Positions 2,145 to 6,265 of a stretch of DNA of 64,000 bases are shown in pieces. The stretch lies in IMG/VR virus record IMGVR_UViG_3300037010_003037, positions 1 through 64,000 of that record; one strand, given 5' to 3'. The stretch is from a virus. Within the stretch, counting starts at the first letter, position 1. Every line of letters starts with the position of its first letter. Position numbers and translations under genes: made by a program. Under the pieces are notes generated by a model. It did not search any database and was not told the DNA's origin. It worked only from the letters and a program-made list of their open reading frames with translations.

Positions 2145-2735
2145 ATGGCACATATTCTTCAGCTTGATTCACAAGGACAACCAAATGCATGGATTACATG
2201 GCAGGATGCTGTCATCTATCACGCAAAAGGATTAGTTTCTTGGACGGCAGGTGAAGTAGAAACTGTTGTTCGTGGTGGATATAATAGAATTACTGGTGAA
2301 CAGTCTATTATTCGTACATCATCAATCATTGCTGTTAAGGGACAGGTATCTAGCAAATGTTGGCATCGCCCACCAATATTGAACAATCGTGAATTGTTCC
2401 GTCGAGATCGTCACATGTGCGCATATTGTGGAGGTGTTTTTAAAGATTCAAATCTTTCTAGAGATCACATTCAACCTCGTTCACGTGGCGGTGCTGATAT
2501 TTGGATGAATGTTGTCACGTGCTGTTATAAGTGCAATCAAAAGAAGGATAACAAAACTCTTGATGAGGCTGGTATGCAGTTGTTATATGCTCCATATGTA
2601 CCAAGCAGAGCAGAACATCTGATACTTGCTAATCGTAACGTACTTTATGACCAAATGGAATTTCTTCTTTCCTTTATTCCTAAGGATAGTCGTATCAGAG
2701 AAACTGTTAAGCACATGTATCCTCAGTTAACATAA
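2145..2735 (+). CDS. HNH endonuclease (McrA/HNH_5-like)
   Basis: LFRRDRHMCAYCG...SRDHIQPRSRGG...WMNVVTCCYKCNQKK zinc-binding HNH signature. Confidence 0.92.
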   Translation: MAHILQLDSQGQPNAWITWQDAVIYHAKGLVSWTAGEVETVVRGGYNRITGEQSIIRTSSIIAVKGQVSSKCWHRPPILNNRELFRRDRHMCAYCGGVFKDSNLSRDHIQPRSRGGADIWMNVVTCCYKCNQKKDNKTLDEAGMQLLYAPYVPSRAEHLILANRNVLYDQMEFLLSFIPKDSRIRETVKHMYPQLT

Positions 2736-2759: not shown

Positions 2760-3302
2760 ATGAAACAACCATCTGAACGTTTGACCCGCGTGATTGAGTT
2801 GCAAAGAAGAGCATTCTTCTTGAATGCTCTTCTCTCAGCAATTTTATCTTTCGTATCTGTTAATGCAATAGATATACAGAATTTCTTTTTACAAGTAATT
2901 GCGTGGGTTTTTTTAACACGACTCTTTTTAATGCTGCTGAACACTGTTGTGCTTATGATTATTCAGCTAAAAGTGTATCAAGGTGATACAGCCTCTCTTG
3001 TCGAAGATGCTACAGCGTATGCTAAAGCGATCAACACCCCGGTTCCATATCAACCGGGTGCTGAAATGTTAATGATGAAAATTATTAATGTTCCTGATAA
3101 ACCTATTGGTAAATTCATGGATGCAGATATCTATGAGTGGTTAGACCTGGAAGATTCTAATGGCGTAACTAGACATTTTGAATTTGTTGGCACAGTCAAC
3201 ATGGAGAATGGAGAAGTTGCTCCTCAGGGAATGTTAACTCTTCCTCCAGGCCTTATATATGAACCTAAAAGTCAGGTTAATATTCCATCTATAAATACCT
3301 GA
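2760..3302 (+). CDS. Hypothetical membrane protein (two N-terminal TM segments)
   Basis: Hydrophobic stretches at about aa 18-70, followed by a soluble C-terminus. Confidence 0.7.
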   Translation: MKQPSERLTRVIELQRRAFFLNALLSAILSFVSVNAIDIQNFFLQVIAWVFLTRLFLMLLNTVVLMIIQLKVYQGDTASLVEDATAYAKAINTPVPYQPGAEMLMMKIINVPDKPIGKFMDADIYEWLDLEDSNGVTRHFEFVGTVNMENGEVAPQGMLTLPPGLIYEPKSQVNIPSINT

Positions 3303-3344
3303 CAAAATTAACAGTTTACAACATCACCTTGATAGTGTTATAAT
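3290..3344 (+). promoter_or_regulatory. Tandem late (TATAAATA 3290-3297) and early (TTTACA 3315-3320 / TGn-TATAAT 3339-3344) promoters upstream of the Y RNA-Ro60 locus
   Basis: Consensus matches; the predicted early +1 falls near 3350, at the first stem of the putative Y RNA. Confidence 0.75.
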
Positions 3345-3347
3345 ATA

Positions 3348-3417
3348 AATGAAACCGGAGTGAATTAGTTATCACAACTTTAAATTAAATCACTGATTCA
3401 CAAATATTTGTTTCATT
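3348..3417 (+). ncRNA. Candidate minimal Y RNA (Ro60-binding)
   Basis: Terminal stem AAUGAAAC/GUUUCAUU, a CCGGAG...UUUG bulged helix, upper stem GUGAAUUAGU/ACUGAUUCAC and GUUAUC; lies directly upstream of a Ro60 gene. Confidence 0.7.
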
Positions 3418-3434
3418 ATGATTTTGTTCATGTA

Positions 3435-3752
3435 TTAACTCTCTTAACCATGTCTTCTGATCCGGAGCGTGTTGGTTATCAATAACTTTATATCTTTAAA
3501 AGAAGATACTTAAATGTCAGTACGCGTACTTATGTGCGTAGGCTGAATATCCCTAGTGAGAGATTATCACGAATGGTGTCTAGATTACCATCACAGAAAA
3601 TTCTAGATATTGCACATAGAAATGTGTCGATTTACCATATGTTCGTTAACATATGGTGTAGGAAGTGTTGATGATTAACAACAATTAATCATCACATTTC
3701 TGAAAATATCCGACACCAATTTTTGTGAAGAAGATGCAGTTAAGAGAGTTAA
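3435..3752 (+). ncRNA. Candidate large Y RNA (about 320 nt) with a multi-hairpin internal domain
   Basis: Perfect 14-bp closing stem ttaactctcttaac (3435-3448)/gttaagagagttaa (3739-3752); CCGGAG..GUGUUGGUUAUC pairing with CCGACAC..UUUUG; at least six internal hairpins. Confidence 0.72.
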
Positions 3753-3795
3753 AAATTTGCTGCAAACGCAGCCGCCGTAATCAATCAAGGAGAAA

Positions 3796-5409
3796 ATGAT
3801 GTCAAACAATTTTTACGCTAATGTGATGGTGGGTAACTCAGCTGAAGTTACGCCTCAGACAGAAACAATTCCTGGTCGTGAATCAGAAATGGTTAAGAAC
3901 AGTGCTGGTGGGTTCACCTTCCAGCTAGATATGTGGGGCTATTTGGACCGCTTTTTAATCCTTGGTTCTGAAAAACCGTCATATTACGTTACCGCGCAAA
4001 AGTTAACGCTCGACGCGGCAAAGAATGTTCTTGAGTGCATCAAGACCGATGGAATTAGAACAGTAAACCGCATTGTTGAAATCTCACAGAGTGGTCGCGC
4101 ACCGAAGAATGATCCAGCGGTTTTTGCTTTGGCACTTTGTGCTATCAATGGCAATGAAACAACAGTAAAAGCAGCCTATGATGCACTGCCAATGGTGTGC
4201 CGTATTGGTACGCATTTGTTTCAATTTGTCTCTACGCTGGACGTGCTTGGTAAATGGAATGCTGCTGCAAAACGTGGTATTGCAGCGTGGTACACGAAGC
4301 GCGATGAAAACCGTTTAGCCGTTCAGCTTCTAAAGTATCAATCACGAAATGGTTGGTCGCATCGAGATGTTTTGCGCCTTGCGCACATTAAGCCAGCTAA
4401 TGAGCGCCAGTCAAATATGTTCCGCTATGTTGTGAAGGGAGCAGAAAGCCTACAAGAAGGTATGAGTGTTCCTGAGCTGATTACAGCCTATGAGATGCTA
4501 AAGCGTGATCCTTCAAAGAAGAACGCGCTTAAGTTGATTAGTGAATTTAAGGATATCACATGGGAAATGTTGCCAACTGAACTACATCGCGACCGTGATG
4601 TGATGTCTGCTTTGATTCAAAACATGGGCATGACAGCGCTTATTCGCAAGCTCGGTCAGCTAACAAACATTGGAGTGATTAAGCCCATGTCTTCTGATTT
4701 GAAGACCGTAATCACGAAGCTGTCTGACGTTGAAACTATCAAGGCAAGCAGAATTCATCCAATTACAATTTTGAACGCGTTTAACCAGTATAAAAATGGT
4801 AAAGGTGACAAGGGATCACTAACATGGGAACCAGTGCAAAGAGTTCTAGATGCATTGAACGATGCGTTCTATGAATCATTCAACTATATTGAATCTACAG
4901 GACAAGGTCACTTGATTGGGGTTGATTGTTCTGGTTCAATGTTTGGTGCTAATGTCATTGGTGCTAGTAACCTAACAGCAGCTGAGGTTGCTGGTGTTAT
5001 GGCATTGGCTGTGGCAAAACGCGAACCTAATTATTGGATTGGGGGATTCAATACTAAGATGGGTGAGTTAAAGATCACACCATCAATGCGTCTTGACGCG
5101 GTTCTTAATGTTATGCGTCGTTTTTCTTGGGGTGGTACTGACTGCTCTCTGCCAATGTTGCACGCCATTGATAATAAACTTGACGGTGTTGACAAGTTTG
5201 TAGTTATCACTGATAATGAAACATGGGCAGGTAGAGTTCACCCAGTGCAGGCTTTGGGTATGTACCGGAAACGTTACGTTAAAAATGCAAAGCTGATTGT
5301 TTGCGCCACATCTGCAACGAAATTTACGATCGCTGATCCTAAGGATCCTGGGATGTTGGACACTGCAGGATTTGATTCTTCTGTTCCACAGCTAATTCAG
5401 CAATTTTGA
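3796..5409 (+). CDS. rsr: Ro60/Rsr RNA-binding protein (TROVE + vWA domains)
   Basis: NSAGGFTF..LDRFLILGSE..SYY, LKYQSRNGWSHRDVLRLAH, SRIHPITIL, MIDAS VDCSGSM, GGTDCSLPM, ITDNETW and C-terminal IADPKDPGMLDTAGFD. Confidence 0.96.
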   Translation: MMSNNFYANVMVGNSAEVTPQTETIPGRESEMVKNSAGGFTFQLDMWGYLDRFLILGSEKPSYYVTAQKLTLDAAKNVLECIKTDGIRTVNRIVEISQSGRAPKNDPAVFALALCAINGNETTVKAAYDALPMVCRIGTHLFQFVSTLDVLGKWNAAAKRGIAAWYTKRDENRLAVQLLKYQSRNGWSHRDVLRLAHIKPANERQSNMFRYVVKGAESLQEGMSVPELITAYEMLKRDPSKKNALKLISEFKDITWEMLPTELHRDRDVMSALIQNMGMTALIRKLGQLTNIGVIKPMSSDLKTVITKLSDVETIKASRIHPITILNAFNQYKNGKGDKGSLTWEPVQRVLDALNDAFYESFNYIESTGQGHLIGVDCSGSMFGANVIGASNLTAAEVAGVMALAVAKREPNYWIGGFNTKMGELKITPSMRLDAVLNVMRRFSWGGTDCSLPMLHAIDNKLDGVDKFVVITDNETWAGRVHPVQALGMYRKRYVKNAKLIVCATSATKFTIADPKDPGMLDTAGFDSSVPQLIQQF

Positions 5410-5475: not shown

Positions 5476-6030
5476 ATGACGAAATTCAACATCATTGCAG
5501 CGGTATCATTGAATGGAGTGATAGGTGATTCAGTCACTAATACCATACCATGGTATTTACCATCTGACCTTAAGCACTTCAAAAATGTTACGCAAAATGG
5601 CACGGTGGTAATGGGTTCTAGAACTTTTCGGAGCATCGGTAAAGTTCTTCCTAATCGGCGAAATGTAGTTATAACCAGAGCACAAGGTGATATAATAAAA
5701 GAGTTGTTGGAGATGGGGGTTAACCAAACATACACGAGCATAAGGGAAGCTATAAAGCATGAATACCCTAATTTTTTCGTGATAGGCGGTCAACATATTT
5801 ACCAAGAGGCTTTTAAAGCTAGACCTTCTAGACTTTATCTAACTATCGTAAAGATAGAAGCTCAAGGTGATGTTATTTTTCCAATAACCGGCAGTATGTT
5901 GTTGAACGATCAGTTTACAACATCTAATAATGTTTTGTACGTTTGTGAAAAACGATCTGAATGGTTTGATGATAATGGAATCCAATTTCAATTCACAGAA
6001 TTTGTGCCCCATGAATGTCGGGCTTACTAA
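5476..6030 (+). CDS. frd: Dihydrofolate reductase
   Basis: IIAAVSLNGVIG, IPWYLPSDLKHFK, VVMGSRTFRSI..LPNRRNVVITR, FVIGGQHIY. ATG 5476 preferred over TTG 5464. Confidence 0.93.
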   Translation: MTKFNIIAAVSLNGVIGDSVTNTIPWYLPSDLKHFKNVTQNGTVVMGSRTFRSIGKVLPNRRNVVITRAQGDIIKELLEMGVNQTYTSIREAIKHEYPNFFVIGGQHIYQEAFKARPSRLYLTIVKIEAQGDVIFPITGSMLLNDQFTTSNNVLYVCEKRSEWFDDNGIQFQFTEFVPHECRAY

Positions 6031-6265
6031 GCTTTCATCTAATAATTACAATTACGTTATCGTTCGTGATTGCGTACTTGAAACACCTGGGGTAACTATT
6101 ATCCTTACACAAGAATTTTCTAACAAGCAAAAGAAATTCTTTTTAGCAGGCGAATGGAGCAACGTTGACAGTCTGTTTAATCACATGAACTCTCTTACTG
6201 ATGATTTGTGTGGTCAATGGTTTAATGAACGACAACCAAAGAAAAAAGATAAAAAGAATGCATAG
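6011..6265 (+). CDS. Hypothetical protein
   Basis: ORF fills the gap; ATG 6011 chosen to minimise overlap with DHFR. Confidence 0.5.
   Translation: MNVGLTKLSSNNYNYVIVRDCVLETPGVTIILTQEFSNKQKKFFLAGEWSNVDSLFNHMNSLTDDLCGQWFNERQPKKKDKKNA

What the first reader, a model, noticed from the sequence alone, without database searches (positions are those of the whole stretch)
3435..3752. Unusually large candidate Y RNA (about 320 nt) with a multi-hairpin domain, directly upstream of a phage Ro60
Seen: a perfect 14-bp closing stem (3435-3448/3739-3752); a further helix UGUCUUCU/AGAAGAUG; a CCGGAG...UUUUG bulged helix; and GUGUUGG(UUAUC)/CCGACAC. These enclose about 225 nt folded into hairpins at 3491-3508, 3518-3545, 3547-3610 (branched), 3612-3627, 3633-3658 and 3661-3701. 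Established: Ro60 binds a bulged-C helix formed by the 5' and 3' ends of Y RNAs; human Y1, recalled from memory, reads CCGAAG-N7-GUUAUC; bacterial Y RNA genes lie next to rsr; typical Y RNAs are about 100 nt, and YrlA carries a tRNA-like module. Inference: this is a Y RNA whose effector module is a new large domain, with no recognisable T-loop, that may tether Ro60 to an unknown protein partner or act as a decoy.
Basis: partly seen in the sequence, partly recalled or inferred. Interest (0 to 1): 0.9.

Follow-up and report, generated by a model that had tools for sequence, protein, structure and literature searches.

The report
Giant Y RNA of jumbo phages
Just upstream of this uncultured giant phage's Ro60 gene lies a conserved structured RNA of about 318 nt that has the Ro60-docking stem of a Y RNA but is three times the usual size, so it probably lets the phage's Ro60 ring recruit a partner that is still unknown.

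Summary

It is one member of a family. In one Ro60 clade of uncultured jumbo phages, 55 of 61 assessable loci carry a 221-395 nt RNA (median about 333) upstream of Ro60, directly so in most. All share:
- a 5' CCG-N9/10-GUUAUC motif and a 3' GAAAUCUCCGAC...UUUUG motif;
- a long basal duplex and three inner helices. In permutation tests no shuffle reached the observed pairing for the three inner helices; cognate basal flanks pair far better than non-cognate ones.

The docking module closely resembles the Rfam consensus of nematode stem-bulge RNAs, which are Y RNA homologues. The 225-nt interior matches no Rfam family and is not detectably tRNA-like.

A second, 70-nt Y RNA (3348-3417) lies between the promoter (3315-3344) and the large RNA. 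No terminator precedes Ro60.

I could not test expression or Ro60 binding. No RNA run holds this DNA.

This scan already found the same family on other DNA (e1-5377606, e1-5322737). One of those notes reports an abundant 274-nt RNA; I did not check it.

Verdict: a real Y RNA variant with a new, large effector domain, not found in the papers I searched. Its partner and function are unknown.

The parts
3315..3344 (+). Sigma-70-type promoter: TTTACA, 18-nt spacer, TGn-TATAAT. The predicted start is about 3350, at the 5' end of the small Y RNA.
   Evidence: 11 of 12 hexamer matches with an extended -10. It is the only strong + strand promoter before Ro60. No + strand terminator lies between it and 3796.
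3348..3417 (+). Small Y RNA (70 nt) with the same docking module (CCGGAGUGAAUUAGUUAUC ... UUUGUUUC).
   Evidence: The covariance model R1, built from 13 Ro60-adjacent small RNAs (11 of 14 pairs show compensatory changes), scores 63 bits here, E 2.5e-16. This row was in the training set, so the score is by construction. Closing stem 3348-3355/3410-3417.
3435..3752 (+). Large Y RNA, whole element (318 nt).
   Evidence: z = -8.6. Family members are 221-395 nt in 36 unique loci.
3435..3458 (+). 5' strand of the basal duplex (14 bp, a 2x2 internal loop, then 8 bp). It pairs with 3729-3752. Proposed processing site (inferred).
   Evidence: Cognate 5'/3' flanks in 36 loci pair at a mean of -30.4 kcal/mol, against -11.0 +/- 4.2 for non-cognate combinations. 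There are 11-41 bp on the 5' side of CCG across the family.
3461..3480 (+). 5' strand of the Ro60-docking module: UCCGGAG, C, GUGUUGG, UUAUC (signature CCG-N10-GUUAUC).
   Evidence: The motif is found upstream of Ro60 in nearly all related loci. It closely resembles the RF01656 consensus ...GGUCCGGaGucgaUGGGUUAUC.
3469..3475 (+). Helix H3, 5' strand (GUGUUGG). It pairs with 3710-3716.
   Evidence: 36 loci, cognate 6.25 against non-cognate 5.14 pairs of 7. For the five variable positions, 0 of 10,000 permutations reach the observed value. Many compensatory pair types.
3491..3627 (+). Variable part of the interior: hairpins 3491-3508, 3517-3546, 3556-3570, 3575-3611 and 3612-3627.
   Evidence: Only 3556-3570 and its AAUAUCCC leader have a clear counterpart, with compensatory changes, in the closest relative L024. 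Most other relatives carry a GUUGAAAGAC hairpin and 'hairpin + AUAG(G)' units here.
3633..3658 (+). Conserved hairpin hp6 (U-ACC...GGU-G stem, loop UUCGUUAA), followed by the 2-nt linker UA (3659-3660).
   Evidence: Covariation in 31 loci: cognate 6.16 against 5.24 pairs of 7, with 0 of 5000 permutations reaching it.
3661..3701 (+). Hairpin hp7. The closing helix GGAAG/UUUCU is conserved in position; the interior is variable.
   Evidence: closing 5 bp in 31 loci, cognate 4.06 against 3.13, with 0 of 10,000 permutations. Examples: GAUCG/CGGUC, GGUCA/UGACU.
3702..3728 (+). 3' strand of the docking module: GAAAAUAU, CCGACAC, CAAU, UUUUGUGA.
   Evidence: The consensus (C)UGAAAUCUCCGAC-N3-5-UUUUG is present in the family. 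It closely resembles the RF01656 consensus ...CACCAACUUG.
3729..3752 (+). 3' strand of the basal duplex.
3756..3774 (+). Conserved short hairpin UUU-GCUGC-AAAC-GCAGC-CG, 12 nt before the Shine-Dalgarno sequence of Ro60. It belongs to the Ro60 leader, not to the Y RNA.
   Evidence: Present before the RBS in nearly all related loci. This includes loci where an ORF separates the Y RNA from Ro60 (L006, L007) and loci without Y RNAs upstream (L066, L070).
3796..5409 (+). Ro60 (TROVE + vWA), 537 aa. SD AAGGAG at 3787-3792. A second in-frame ATG at 3799 has better spacing.

Best explanation
Window 3435-3752 encodes a partner RNA of the phage's Ro60 protein, that is, a Y RNA. It belongs to a family with an oversized effector domain that I found in no Rfam model and no paper searched.

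Shown:
- One sigma-70-type promoter (3315-3344) is followed, with no terminator, by a 70-nt Y RNA, the 318-nt RNA, a short conserved hairpin and the Ro60 ORF.
- The RNA's ends form about 22 bp of duplex.
- Next comes a bulged helix plus a 7-bp helix ending in UUAUC. The 70-nt paralogue carries the same module, and it closely resembles the animal Y/stem-bulge RNA consensus.
- The 225-nt interior is a multi-hairpin junction. Its last two hairpins and their linkers (UA and GAAAU) are conserved with covariation.

Inferred:
- The RNAs are cut out of the common precursor. This has a precedent in M. smegmatis, and the long duplex would suit a host RNase III-type cut.
- Ro60 docks on the bulged helix.
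- The interior acts as the effector module that tethers Ro60 to another protein. The most likely partner is a host 3'-5' exoribonuclease of the PNPase type, as in the Deinococcus/Salmonella RYPER complex and the Thermus phage phiLo complex. This would redirect RNA decay or RNA quality control during infection.

The identity of the partner is the weakest step.
For: Structure: z = -8.6; the arms are confirmed by the repeat finder.

Context: canonical Ro60 downstream; a promoter and no terminator.

Family: 55 Ro60 loci carry a large RNA, all inside one Ro60 clade of 66 tips, and none of the 64 tips outside it does.

Covariation:
- H3: 0 of 10,000 permutations reach the observed pairing.
- Basal duplex: -30.4 against -11.0 kcal/mol.
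- hp6: 0 of 5000.
- hp7 closing helix: 0 of 10,000.

Docking module:
- It is shared with small Y RNAs that have 11 of 14 covarying pairs.
- The small Y RNA of a close relative (L106, Ro60 75% identical) scores 37.0 bits on Rfam RF01656, whose gathering score is 38 (E 5e-6). The printed consensus closely resembles the window's large-RNA strands.
- More distant phage Ro60 loci with the same CCG...GUUAUC motif hit YrlA at E 1e-8 to 1e-5, and one hits Y_RNA at 31.7 bits.

Trans-acting rather than a cis leader: in L006, L007, L040, L129 and L013 an ORF or 350-1000 nt separates the RNA from Ro60.

One copy per genome, always at the Ro60 locus.

Precedents from papers:
- Y RNAs processed from a single precursor upstream of rsr (PMC4201824).
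- Phage Ro60 binding two upstream Yrl RNAs and host PNPase (PMC12135203).

No phage-encoded PNPase, RtcB or RNase III in three 98-100% complete relatives, so any such partner would be a host protein.
Against: - No expression, end-mapping or binding data exist for this RNA.
- No Rfam Y_RNA, sbRNA or YrlA model hits the large RNA or the window's small RNA, even at E <= 10. The Y RNA assignment therefore rests on motif identity, synteny and covariation.
- Pairing in the proposed Ro60 site itself is weak (C-G followed by G-U, G-U, A-U and G-U pairs). The bulge falls on the 3' strand in the MFE fold rather than being the bulged C of animal Y RNAs.
- The 5' two-thirds of the interior is poorly conserved even in the closest relative. 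This fits a loosely constrained spacer as well as a specific binding surface.
- Three loci inside the clade have Ro60 with no Y RNA upstream, and one has only a small Y RNA. The large RNA is therefore dispensable at that position.
- PNPase as the partner is pure analogy.
Confidence: 0.72

Rival explanations
1. The element is a cis-acting structured leader of the Ro60 mRNA. It would control translation or mRNA stability, for example as an autoregulatory Ro60 operator, and would not be released as a separate RNA.
For: There is no terminator and no second promoter between the RNA and the Ro60 start, so the RNA is part of the Ro60 transcript at least initially. The distance to Ro60 is 72-135 nt in most loci.
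Against: In L006, L007, L040 and L129 the RNA lies 354-543 nt upstream with an intervening ORF. In L013 a 247-aa ORF lies between them. The element nearest the RBS that is conserved everywhere is a different small hairpin (3756-3774). A closed 22-bp basal duplex makes an autonomous domain. The same module occurs in small RNAs far from Ro60, inside tRNA arrays.
Confidence: 0.1
2. It is a Y RNA, but the big interior is an expanded, degenerate YrlA-type tRNA mimic. It would still work through tRNA-recognising enzymes (RNase P, CCA-adding enzyme, modification enzymes, tRNA-targeting defence nucleases) rather than through a new partner.
For: Distant phage Ro60 loci with the same CCG...GUUAUC docking motif carry YrlA-like interiors. 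In the large RNAs the conserved order 'stem-loop closed by U-G, UA, stem-loop' (3633-3701) is the order acceptor-like stem, UA, D-arm of the YrlA consensus printed. Hairpin loops rich in CGAA/UCGAA (69 against 43 expected, z 4.6) recall T-loops. Small Y RNAs sit among tRNA genes.
Against: No tRNA or YrlA covariance-model hit in the window or in 13 core-clade loci at E <= 1 to 10. ARAGORN finds nothing. The window's own loops lack the invariant T-loop A58 (UUCGUUAA). The position of the D-arm is taken by a 41-nt variable hairpin.
Confidence: 0.1
3. It is a Ro60-independent structured RNA, for example a sponge for a host RNA-binding protein or an anti-defence decoy, that merely shares the operon.
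For: Repeated 'hairpin + (G/A)UAG(G)' units (UAGG 80 against 30 expected, z 10) resemble the repeated protein-binding sites of sponge RNAs. The number of units varies between phages.
Against: The element is found once per genome and only beside Ro60. Its closing module is the one shared by all the small Y RNAs. The UAGG enrichment is partly shared ancestry, and part of each UAGG is base-paired (the GG closes hp7).
Confidence: 0.06
4. It is not an RNA gene: chance palindromes or a small protein-coding gene (ORF 3534-3671, 45 aa, GTG start).
For: the ORF listing lists a 45-aa frame inside the element.
Against: The z-score is -8.6. Helices are kept by compensatory changes across 31-36 loci. The closest relative has large insertions and deletions across that frame. 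There is no Shine-Dalgarno sequence before 3534.
Confidence: 0.01

Closest known systems
Animal Y RNAs and nematode stem-bulge RNAs (Rfam RF00019, RF01656)
   Same: The 5' and 3' ends pair. There is a bulged lower helix with UCCG in the 5' strand, then a helix of about 7 bp followed by UUAUC, with 3' strand ...CAC-CAA-(C/U)UUG. The RF01656 consensus printed closely resembles the window's strands. The partner protein is a canonical Ro60 (1e-107 to PDB chain 1yvp, a 60-kDa SS-A/Ro ribonucleoprotein).
   Different: Length is 318 nt against 100 +/- 20 nt (PMC4726728). The loop domain is a 225-nt seven-hairpin junction. The basal duplex is far longer. It is encoded in a phage operon and presumably cut from a precursor, not a Pol III gene with a U-tail. 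No covariance-model hit for the large RNA.
Bacterial and phage YrlA (Rfam RF02553; Chen et al. 2014, PMC4201824)
   Same: It lies upstream of rsr/Ro60 in tandem with a second, smaller Y RNA, probably made from one precursor. The order 'stem-loop, UA, stem-loop' next to the closing helix is shared.
   Different: No T-arm or D-arm and no tRNA-like domain. The 5' motif is CCGGAG rather than GNCGAAN0-1G. It is three times longer.
Deinococcus Yrn1 in the RYPER complex, and Thermus phage phiLo Yrl1/Yrl2 with phage Ro60 and host PNPase (PMC12135203)
   Same: The working model is the same: a Y RNA docks on Ro60 with its stem and uses its interior to tether an exoribonuclease. phiLo also has two Y-like RNAs upstream of the phage Ro60 gene and no phage PNPase.
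   Different: Those RNAs are of ordinary Y RNA size. No binding data exist here. The window's Ro60 is much closer to animal Ro60 and Deinococcus Rsr (1e-103 to 1e-108) than to phiLo Ro60 (1.6e-6).

Membership tests
Y RNA (Ro60-associated non-coding RNA, broad sense) | Encoded next to, or co-expressed with, a Ro60/Rsr gene (bacteria, phages) | tested here: met
   It lies 43 nt upstream of a full-length Ro60 ORF on the same strand, with no terminator between. The same position holds in 55 related loci.
Y RNA (Ro60-associated non-coding RNA, broad sense) | 5' and 3' ends base-pair into a long stem that encloses a variable loop domain | tested here: met
   The stem is supported by cognate against non-cognate duplex energies (-30.4 against -11.0 kcal/mol).
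Y RNA (Ro60-associated non-coding RNA, broad sense) | Conserved bulged helix with the Ro60-contacted 5'-strand motif (GGUCCGA in animals, GNCGAA in YrlA) | tested here: inconclusive
   UCCGGAG is conserved as (A/G)NCCG in all loci, and the module closely resembles the RF01656 consensus. However, the predicted bulge is a 3'-strand U rather than the bulged C, and the pairing is mostly G-U.
Y RNA (Ro60-associated non-coding RNA, broad sense) | Physically bound by Ro60 and stabilised by it | not testable with these tools
   Needs immunoprecipitation or a gel-shift assay.
Y RNA (Ro60-associated non-coding RNA, broad sense) | Size about 100 +/- 20 nt | tested here: not met
   318 nt here; 221-395 nt in the family.
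Rfam Y_RNA RF00019 / sbRNA RF01656 | Covariance-model score at or above the gathering threshold | tested here: not met
   No hit in 3250-3850 at E <= 10. The small Y RNA of relative L106 reaches 37.0 bits (threshold 38), and L161 reaches 31.7 bits on RF00019.
YrlA (Rfam RF02553) | tRNA-like domain: T-arm, acceptor-like stem-loop, D-arm | tested here: not met
   No YrlA or tRNA hit in the window or in core-clade loci. ARAGORN finds none. Only the 'stem-loop, UA, stem-loop' order is shared.
YrlA (Rfam RF02553) | GNCGAAN0-1G motif near the 5' end | tested here: not met
   The window has AUCCGGAGCG. CGAA occurs only once, in the interior.

The most novel reading that the evidence does not exclude
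The 225-nt interior is a new autonomous RNA fold that recruits a partner other than PNPase. Candidates are the conserved HNH nuclease encoded two genes upstream, several Ro60 rings through its CGAA loops, or a host defence or repair enzyme. This would make the particle a phage-specific RNA-targeting machine.
Probability: 0.2. Interest if true: 0.85.

Novelty: new variant of a known kind. Interest (0 to 1): 0.62.

Why it matters
Y RNAs are modular. A conserved stem docks Ro60, and a variable loop decides what Ro60 is connected to. Known loops are small (animals) or tRNA-like (bacteria, actinophages).

Here a whole clade of giant phages keeps an animal-type docking stem but has a loop domain of about 150-290 nt with its own conserved junction. 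That implies a binding partner or activity not yet seen for any Ro60 particle.

The family gives a well-defined, covariation-supported RNA for biochemical and structural work with a canonical Ro60. It also offers a way to ask what phages use Ro60 for: host RNA decay, care of phage tRNAs, or countering RNA-cleaving defences.

The animal-like docking motif in phages bears on the open question of whether bacterial and animal Y RNAs are homologous.

The interest is tempered because function, expression and binding are all untested here.

Tried and rejected
- RNA evidence: the look-up of sequencing runs listed 7 runs that hold the DNA, and no RNA holder was listed. Expression could not be examined and read laying was not used.
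- Nucleotide search of cultured phages found nothing. The best cultured-phage Ro60 is 41% identical, so no isolate of this clade is at hand.
- Rfam at gathering thresholds on the window and on 16 loci gave nothing. Rfam at E-value thresholds gave nothing relevant for core-clade RNAs.
- A whole-IMG/VR pattern scan for the 3' module (GGTGTAGG-N14-44-GAARTYTCCGA) returned 38 stretches. Of these, 37 were chance matches inside coding sequence and one was a locus already held, so it was uninformative.
- I searched the window with the small-Y-RNA covariance model R1, hoping it would span the large RNA. It found only the small RNA. I think the model cannot bridge a 225-nt insertion, so this says nothing about homology.
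- MAFFT Q-INS-i is not installed. A plain MAFFT alignment of whole RNAs (617 columns) aligns only the ends and the 3' module, and RNAalifold recovered only H3.
- The model R2 built from the 3' module came out sequence-only because RNAalifold found no pairs in that alignment. Covariation was therefore measured with anchored cognate/non-cognate permutation tests.
- Searches for phage-encoded RtcB, RNase PH/PNPase and RNase III in the window's record and three near-complete relatives were all negative.
- PHROGs and Pfam give nothing for the 180-aa upstream ORF.
- The Annual Review on bacterial Ro60 (PMC10870794) is not held.
- Complex prediction and structure prediction were not used, because no protein-protein claim is made.
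Full report
**1. The observation**

The window is the first 64 kb of a 147.7-kb IMG/VR virus record that CheckV rates 42% complete, which implies a jumbo phage of about 350 kb. ORF 3796-5409 is a canonical Ro60:
- Pfam TROVE and vWA_Ro60;
- PHROG 'RNA-binding protein';
- PDB chains 9nen (deposited as 'RNA-binding protein RO60') and 1yvp (60-kDa SS-A/Ro ribonucleoprotein) at 1e-108/1e-107, and 2nvo (Rsr) at 5e-103.

The upstream ORF ends at 3302, which leaves 493 non-coding bases.

The energy is -103.1 kcal/mol, against -63.9 +/- 4.6 for dinucleotide shuffles (z = -8.6). The repeat finder returns the same arms.

**2. Relatives**

No cultured phage has similar DNA. The best cultured-phage Ro60 is 41% identical.

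Scans of IMG/VR and JGI metagenomes with the Ro60 protein and with an alignment of it gave about 180 loci, 129 of them with distinct Ro60 sequences. Many come from contigs of 330-370 kb.

Almost every locus with Ro60 at least 53% identical to the window's has a 400-650 nt non-coding gap upstream. This gap holds one or two copies of the motif CCG-N9/10-GUUAUC. Each copy is matched downstream by (C)UGAAAUCUCCGAC-N3-5-UUUUG.

The Ro60-proximal copy always encloses a long interior. With its basal stem it measures 221-395 nt in 36 unique loci, with a median of about 333. It has 11-41 bp of duplex on the 5' side of CCG and 4-10 predicted inner hairpins. The window's 318 nt is therefore typical of a family, not an oddity.

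**3. Covariation**

The interiors differ too much for MAFFT/RNAalifold. I therefore anchored each helix on the invariant motifs and compared each 5' strand with its own 3' strand and with the 3' strands of the other loci.

| Helix | Window coordinates | Loci | Cognate | Non-cognate | Permutations reaching the observed value |
|---|---|---|---|---|---|
| H3 | 3469-3475 / 3710-3716 | 36 | 6.25 of 7 pairs | 5.14 | 0 of 10,000 (five variable positions) |
| Basal duplex | 3435-3458 / 3729-3752 | 36 | -30.4 kcal/mol | -11.0 +/- 4.2 | not run |
| hp6 | 3633-3658 | 31 | 6.16 of 7 | 5.24 | 0 of 5000 |
| hp7 closing helix | 3661-3665 / 3697-3701 | 31 | 4.06 of 5 | 3.13 | 0 of 10,000 |

For H3, GC, AU, UA, GU and UG all occur at the same positions. 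For the hp7 closing helix there are clear double changes, such as GGAAG/UUUCU, GAUCG/CGGUC and GGUCA/UGACU.

Related sequences inflate such tests somewhat. However, the helices differ at most positions between loci while staying complementary.

**4. Is it a Y RNA?**

Evidence for:
- It lies beside Ro60, and a long terminal stem closes a variable loop.
- The docking module is the same as in the small RNA upstream (3348-3417; CCGGAGUGAAUUAGUUAUC ... UUUGUUUC).
- An alignment of 13 such small RNAs has 14 consensus pairs, 11 of them with compensatory changes.
- The small RNA of relative L106 (Ro60 75% identical) scores 37.0 bits on Rfam RF01656, the nematode stem-bulge RNAs, which papers treat as Y RNA homologues (PMC4726728). 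The gathering score is 38, and E is 5e-6 in that search.
- The model consensus printed there (...GGUCCGGaGucgaUGGGUUAUC ... CCCAucgaCACCAACUUGACC...) can be laid directly on the window's large RNA (GAUCCGGAGCGUGUUGGUUAUC ... CCGACACCAAUUUUUGUGAAG).
- In more distant phage Ro60 loci (42-48% identity) the same CCG...GUUAUC motif heads arrays of two to six small RNAs. Several of these hit YrlA (E 1e-8 to 1e-5, below the gathering score) and one hits Y_RNA at 31.7 bits.

Evidence against: no Rfam model touches the window's RNAs even at E <= 10, nor the core-clade RNAs at E <= 5.

Membership in the broad Y RNA kind is therefore supported by anatomy and context, not by a curated model and not by binding data.

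**5. The interior**

The part conserved family-wide is the 3' third. It runs U-ACC...GGU-G hairpin (hp6), a 2-nt UA linker, a hairpin closed by GG/CU (hp7), then GAAAU(C)U, which leads into H3.

The 5' strand UUAUC and the 3' strand GAAAUCU face each other across the junction and are nearly invariant, in the small RNAs as well. This suggests a defined junction fold.

Upstream of hp6 the relatives carry varying numbers of 'hairpin + (G/A)AUAG(G)UU' units, whose loops are often (Y)CGAA(Y). Most also have a GUUGAAAGAC hairpin. Motif counts against dinucleotide shuffles are UAGG 80 against 30 (z 10), GUAGG 41 against 9, and CCGAA 25 against 9. These counts are partly shared ancestry.

The window lacks the GUUGAAAGAC hairpin. 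It shares only AAUAUCCC plus the GAGA-loop hairpin (3548-3570) and the 3' third with its closest relative L024.

The order 'stem-loop closed by U-G, UA, stem-loop' equals acceptor-like stem, UA, D-arm in the YrlA consensus. The domain may therefore descend from a tRNA-like module. No tRNA or YrlA model or ARAGORN supports tRNA mimicry today.

**6. Distribution**

A profile of the 3' module hits once per genome, at the Ro60 locus. This holds in the window's record and in three 98-100% complete relatives, two of which were not in the training set.

On a FastTree of 130 Ro60 sequences with midpoint rooting, all 55 loci with a large RNA fall in one clade of 66 tips. None of the 64 tips outside it has one. 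Inside the clade:
- three loci have no Y RNA upstream;
- one locus has only a small Y RNA;
- five basal loci have other structured elements;
- two loci lack upstream sequence.

**7. How it probably works**

Shown: one strong promoter (3315-3344, 11 of 12 matches with an extended -10), no + strand terminator before 3796, and no other strong (10 or more of 12) + strand promoter between the RNA and the ORF. The two RNAs and the Ro60 mRNA therefore start as one transcript.

Precedents:
- M. smegmatis YrlA and YrlB are processed from one precursor upstream of rsr (PMC4201824).
- Thermus phage phiLo Ro60 binds two upstream Yrl RNAs and forms a ternary complex with host PNPase (PMC12135203).

Inferred:
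- The 22-bp or longer perfect or near-perfect duplex is where the RNA is released. An RNase III-type cut is the obvious candidate. No phage RNase III gene was found in the near-complete relatives, so the host enzyme would be used.
- Ro60 binds the bulged helix.
- The interior tethers a partner. No phage PNPase or RtcB exists in those genomes, so a host exoribonuclease is my best guess.

The RNA is unlikely to be only a cis leader. In five loci it is separated from Ro60 by an ORF, and the module also occurs far from Ro60 (section 8).

**8. Side observations**

The small-Y model finds further copies inside the tRNA arrays of the complete relatives. In the cultured Sinorhizobium phage Phosso it finds two hits that fill two unannotated gaps between tRNA genes, 130 kb from that phage's Ro60.

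A short hairpin, UU-GCUGN...NCAGC-CG, sits just before the Ro60 RBS in nearly all loci, even those without Y RNAs upstream.

An HNH_5 protein (2145-2735) is conserved at 55-72% identity upstream of the RNAs in 15 of 22 loci.

**9. Earlier notes of this scan (unchecked leads)**

The same family was noted before on other DNA.
- e1-5377606 reports an abundant 274-nt RNA upstream of a giant-phage Ro60 that 'may be joined into a circle'.
- e1-5322737 describes tandem Y-like modules with animal-type hallmarks.
- e1-5322728 describes Y-like RNAs in a tRNA array.

I could not verify the expression claim. My own analyses independently reach the same anatomy.

In the literature I could search, phage Y RNAs are described only as YrlA-like or of ordinary size. 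I found no description of a Y RNA of about 300 nt.

**10. Verdict**

This is a real, conserved, oversized Y-type RNA with a new effector domain: a new variant of a known kind. I put the identity at about 0.7-0.8. The partner and function remain open.

Noticed in passing
window 3348-3417: A second, minimal (70-nt) Y RNA with the same CCG-N10-GUUAUC / UUUG docking module starts at the predicted +1 of the promoter. Most relatives also have a small Y RNA (63-164 nt) upstream of the large one.
   Followed up: yes
window 3756-3774 (and before the Ro60 RBS in nearly all loci, e.g. L001, L004, L012, L024, L066, L070): A conserved short hairpin, UU-GCUG(N)-loop-(N)CAGC-CG, lies 10-20 nt before the Shine-Dalgarno sequence. 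Its inner pairs covary. It stays with Ro60 even where an ORF separates the Y RNA from Ro60, or where there are no Y RNAs upstream. It may be a translational operator or a stabilising 5' hairpin of the processed Ro60 mRNA.
   Followed up: partly
G001:C1:1393-2057; G002:C1:59198-59273 and 210960-211373; G003:C1:19650-22565 (loci L222-L225): Further small Y-like RNAs (24-40 bits with model R1) are embedded in the tRNA gene arrays of complete relatives. They lie on the tRNA strand, directly beside tRNA genes and far from Ro60.
   Followed up: partly
Sinorhizobium phage Phosso PV764938.1, 420437-420500 and 420665-420735 (L227): In this cultured jumbo phage, two hits of the small-Y model fill the unannotated gaps between tRNA-Gly and tRNA-Asp and between tRNA-Arg and tRNA-Leu. 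The first scores 31.1 bits (E 6e-6); the second is weak (17.6 bits, E 0.06). They lie 130 kb from the phage's Ro60 gene. This could serve as an experimental system for phage Y RNAs.
   Followed up: partly
window 2145-2735 (+): The 196-aa HNH_5 endonuclease is unusually well conserved (55-72% identity) and syntenic, one or two genes upstream of the Y RNAs, in 15 of 22 loci. It is a conceivable nuclease partner of the particle. The 180-aa ORF between them (2760-3302) has no family and is poorly conserved.
   Followed up: partly
L013:2268-3011; L006:2557-2904; L007:2574-2900: Genes are inserted between the large Y RNA and Ro60. In L013 it is a 247-aa ORF whose N-terminus looks GIY-YIG-like by eye (not tested). 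In L006 and L007 it is a 108-115-aa ORF homologous to window ORF 5930-6265.
   Followed up: no
L130, L132, L134 (Ro60 55-58% identical); L051: These are exceptions inside the clade. Three loci have only about 140 nt and a promoter before Ro60, with no Y RNA. L051 has only a 100-nt Y RNA.
   Followed up: partly
L161, L075, L181, L164, L169, L076 (Ro60 42-47% identical): Distant phage Ro60 genes are preceded by arrays of three to six Y RNAs with the same CCG(A/G)AG...GGUUAUC motif. Some have YrlA-like tRNA mimics and are interleaved with true tRNA genes.
   Followed up: partly
window 3618-3632 / 3687-3701: An alternative 15-nt pairing (87% complementary) exists between the 3' side of hairpin 3612-3627 and the 3' strand of hp7. 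It would compete with the MFE fold.
   Followed up: no
window 3796-3801: There are two in-frame ATGs. The second (3799) has the better spacing to the AAGGAG at 3787-3792, so Ro60 may start three bases later than the longest ORF.
   Followed up: no
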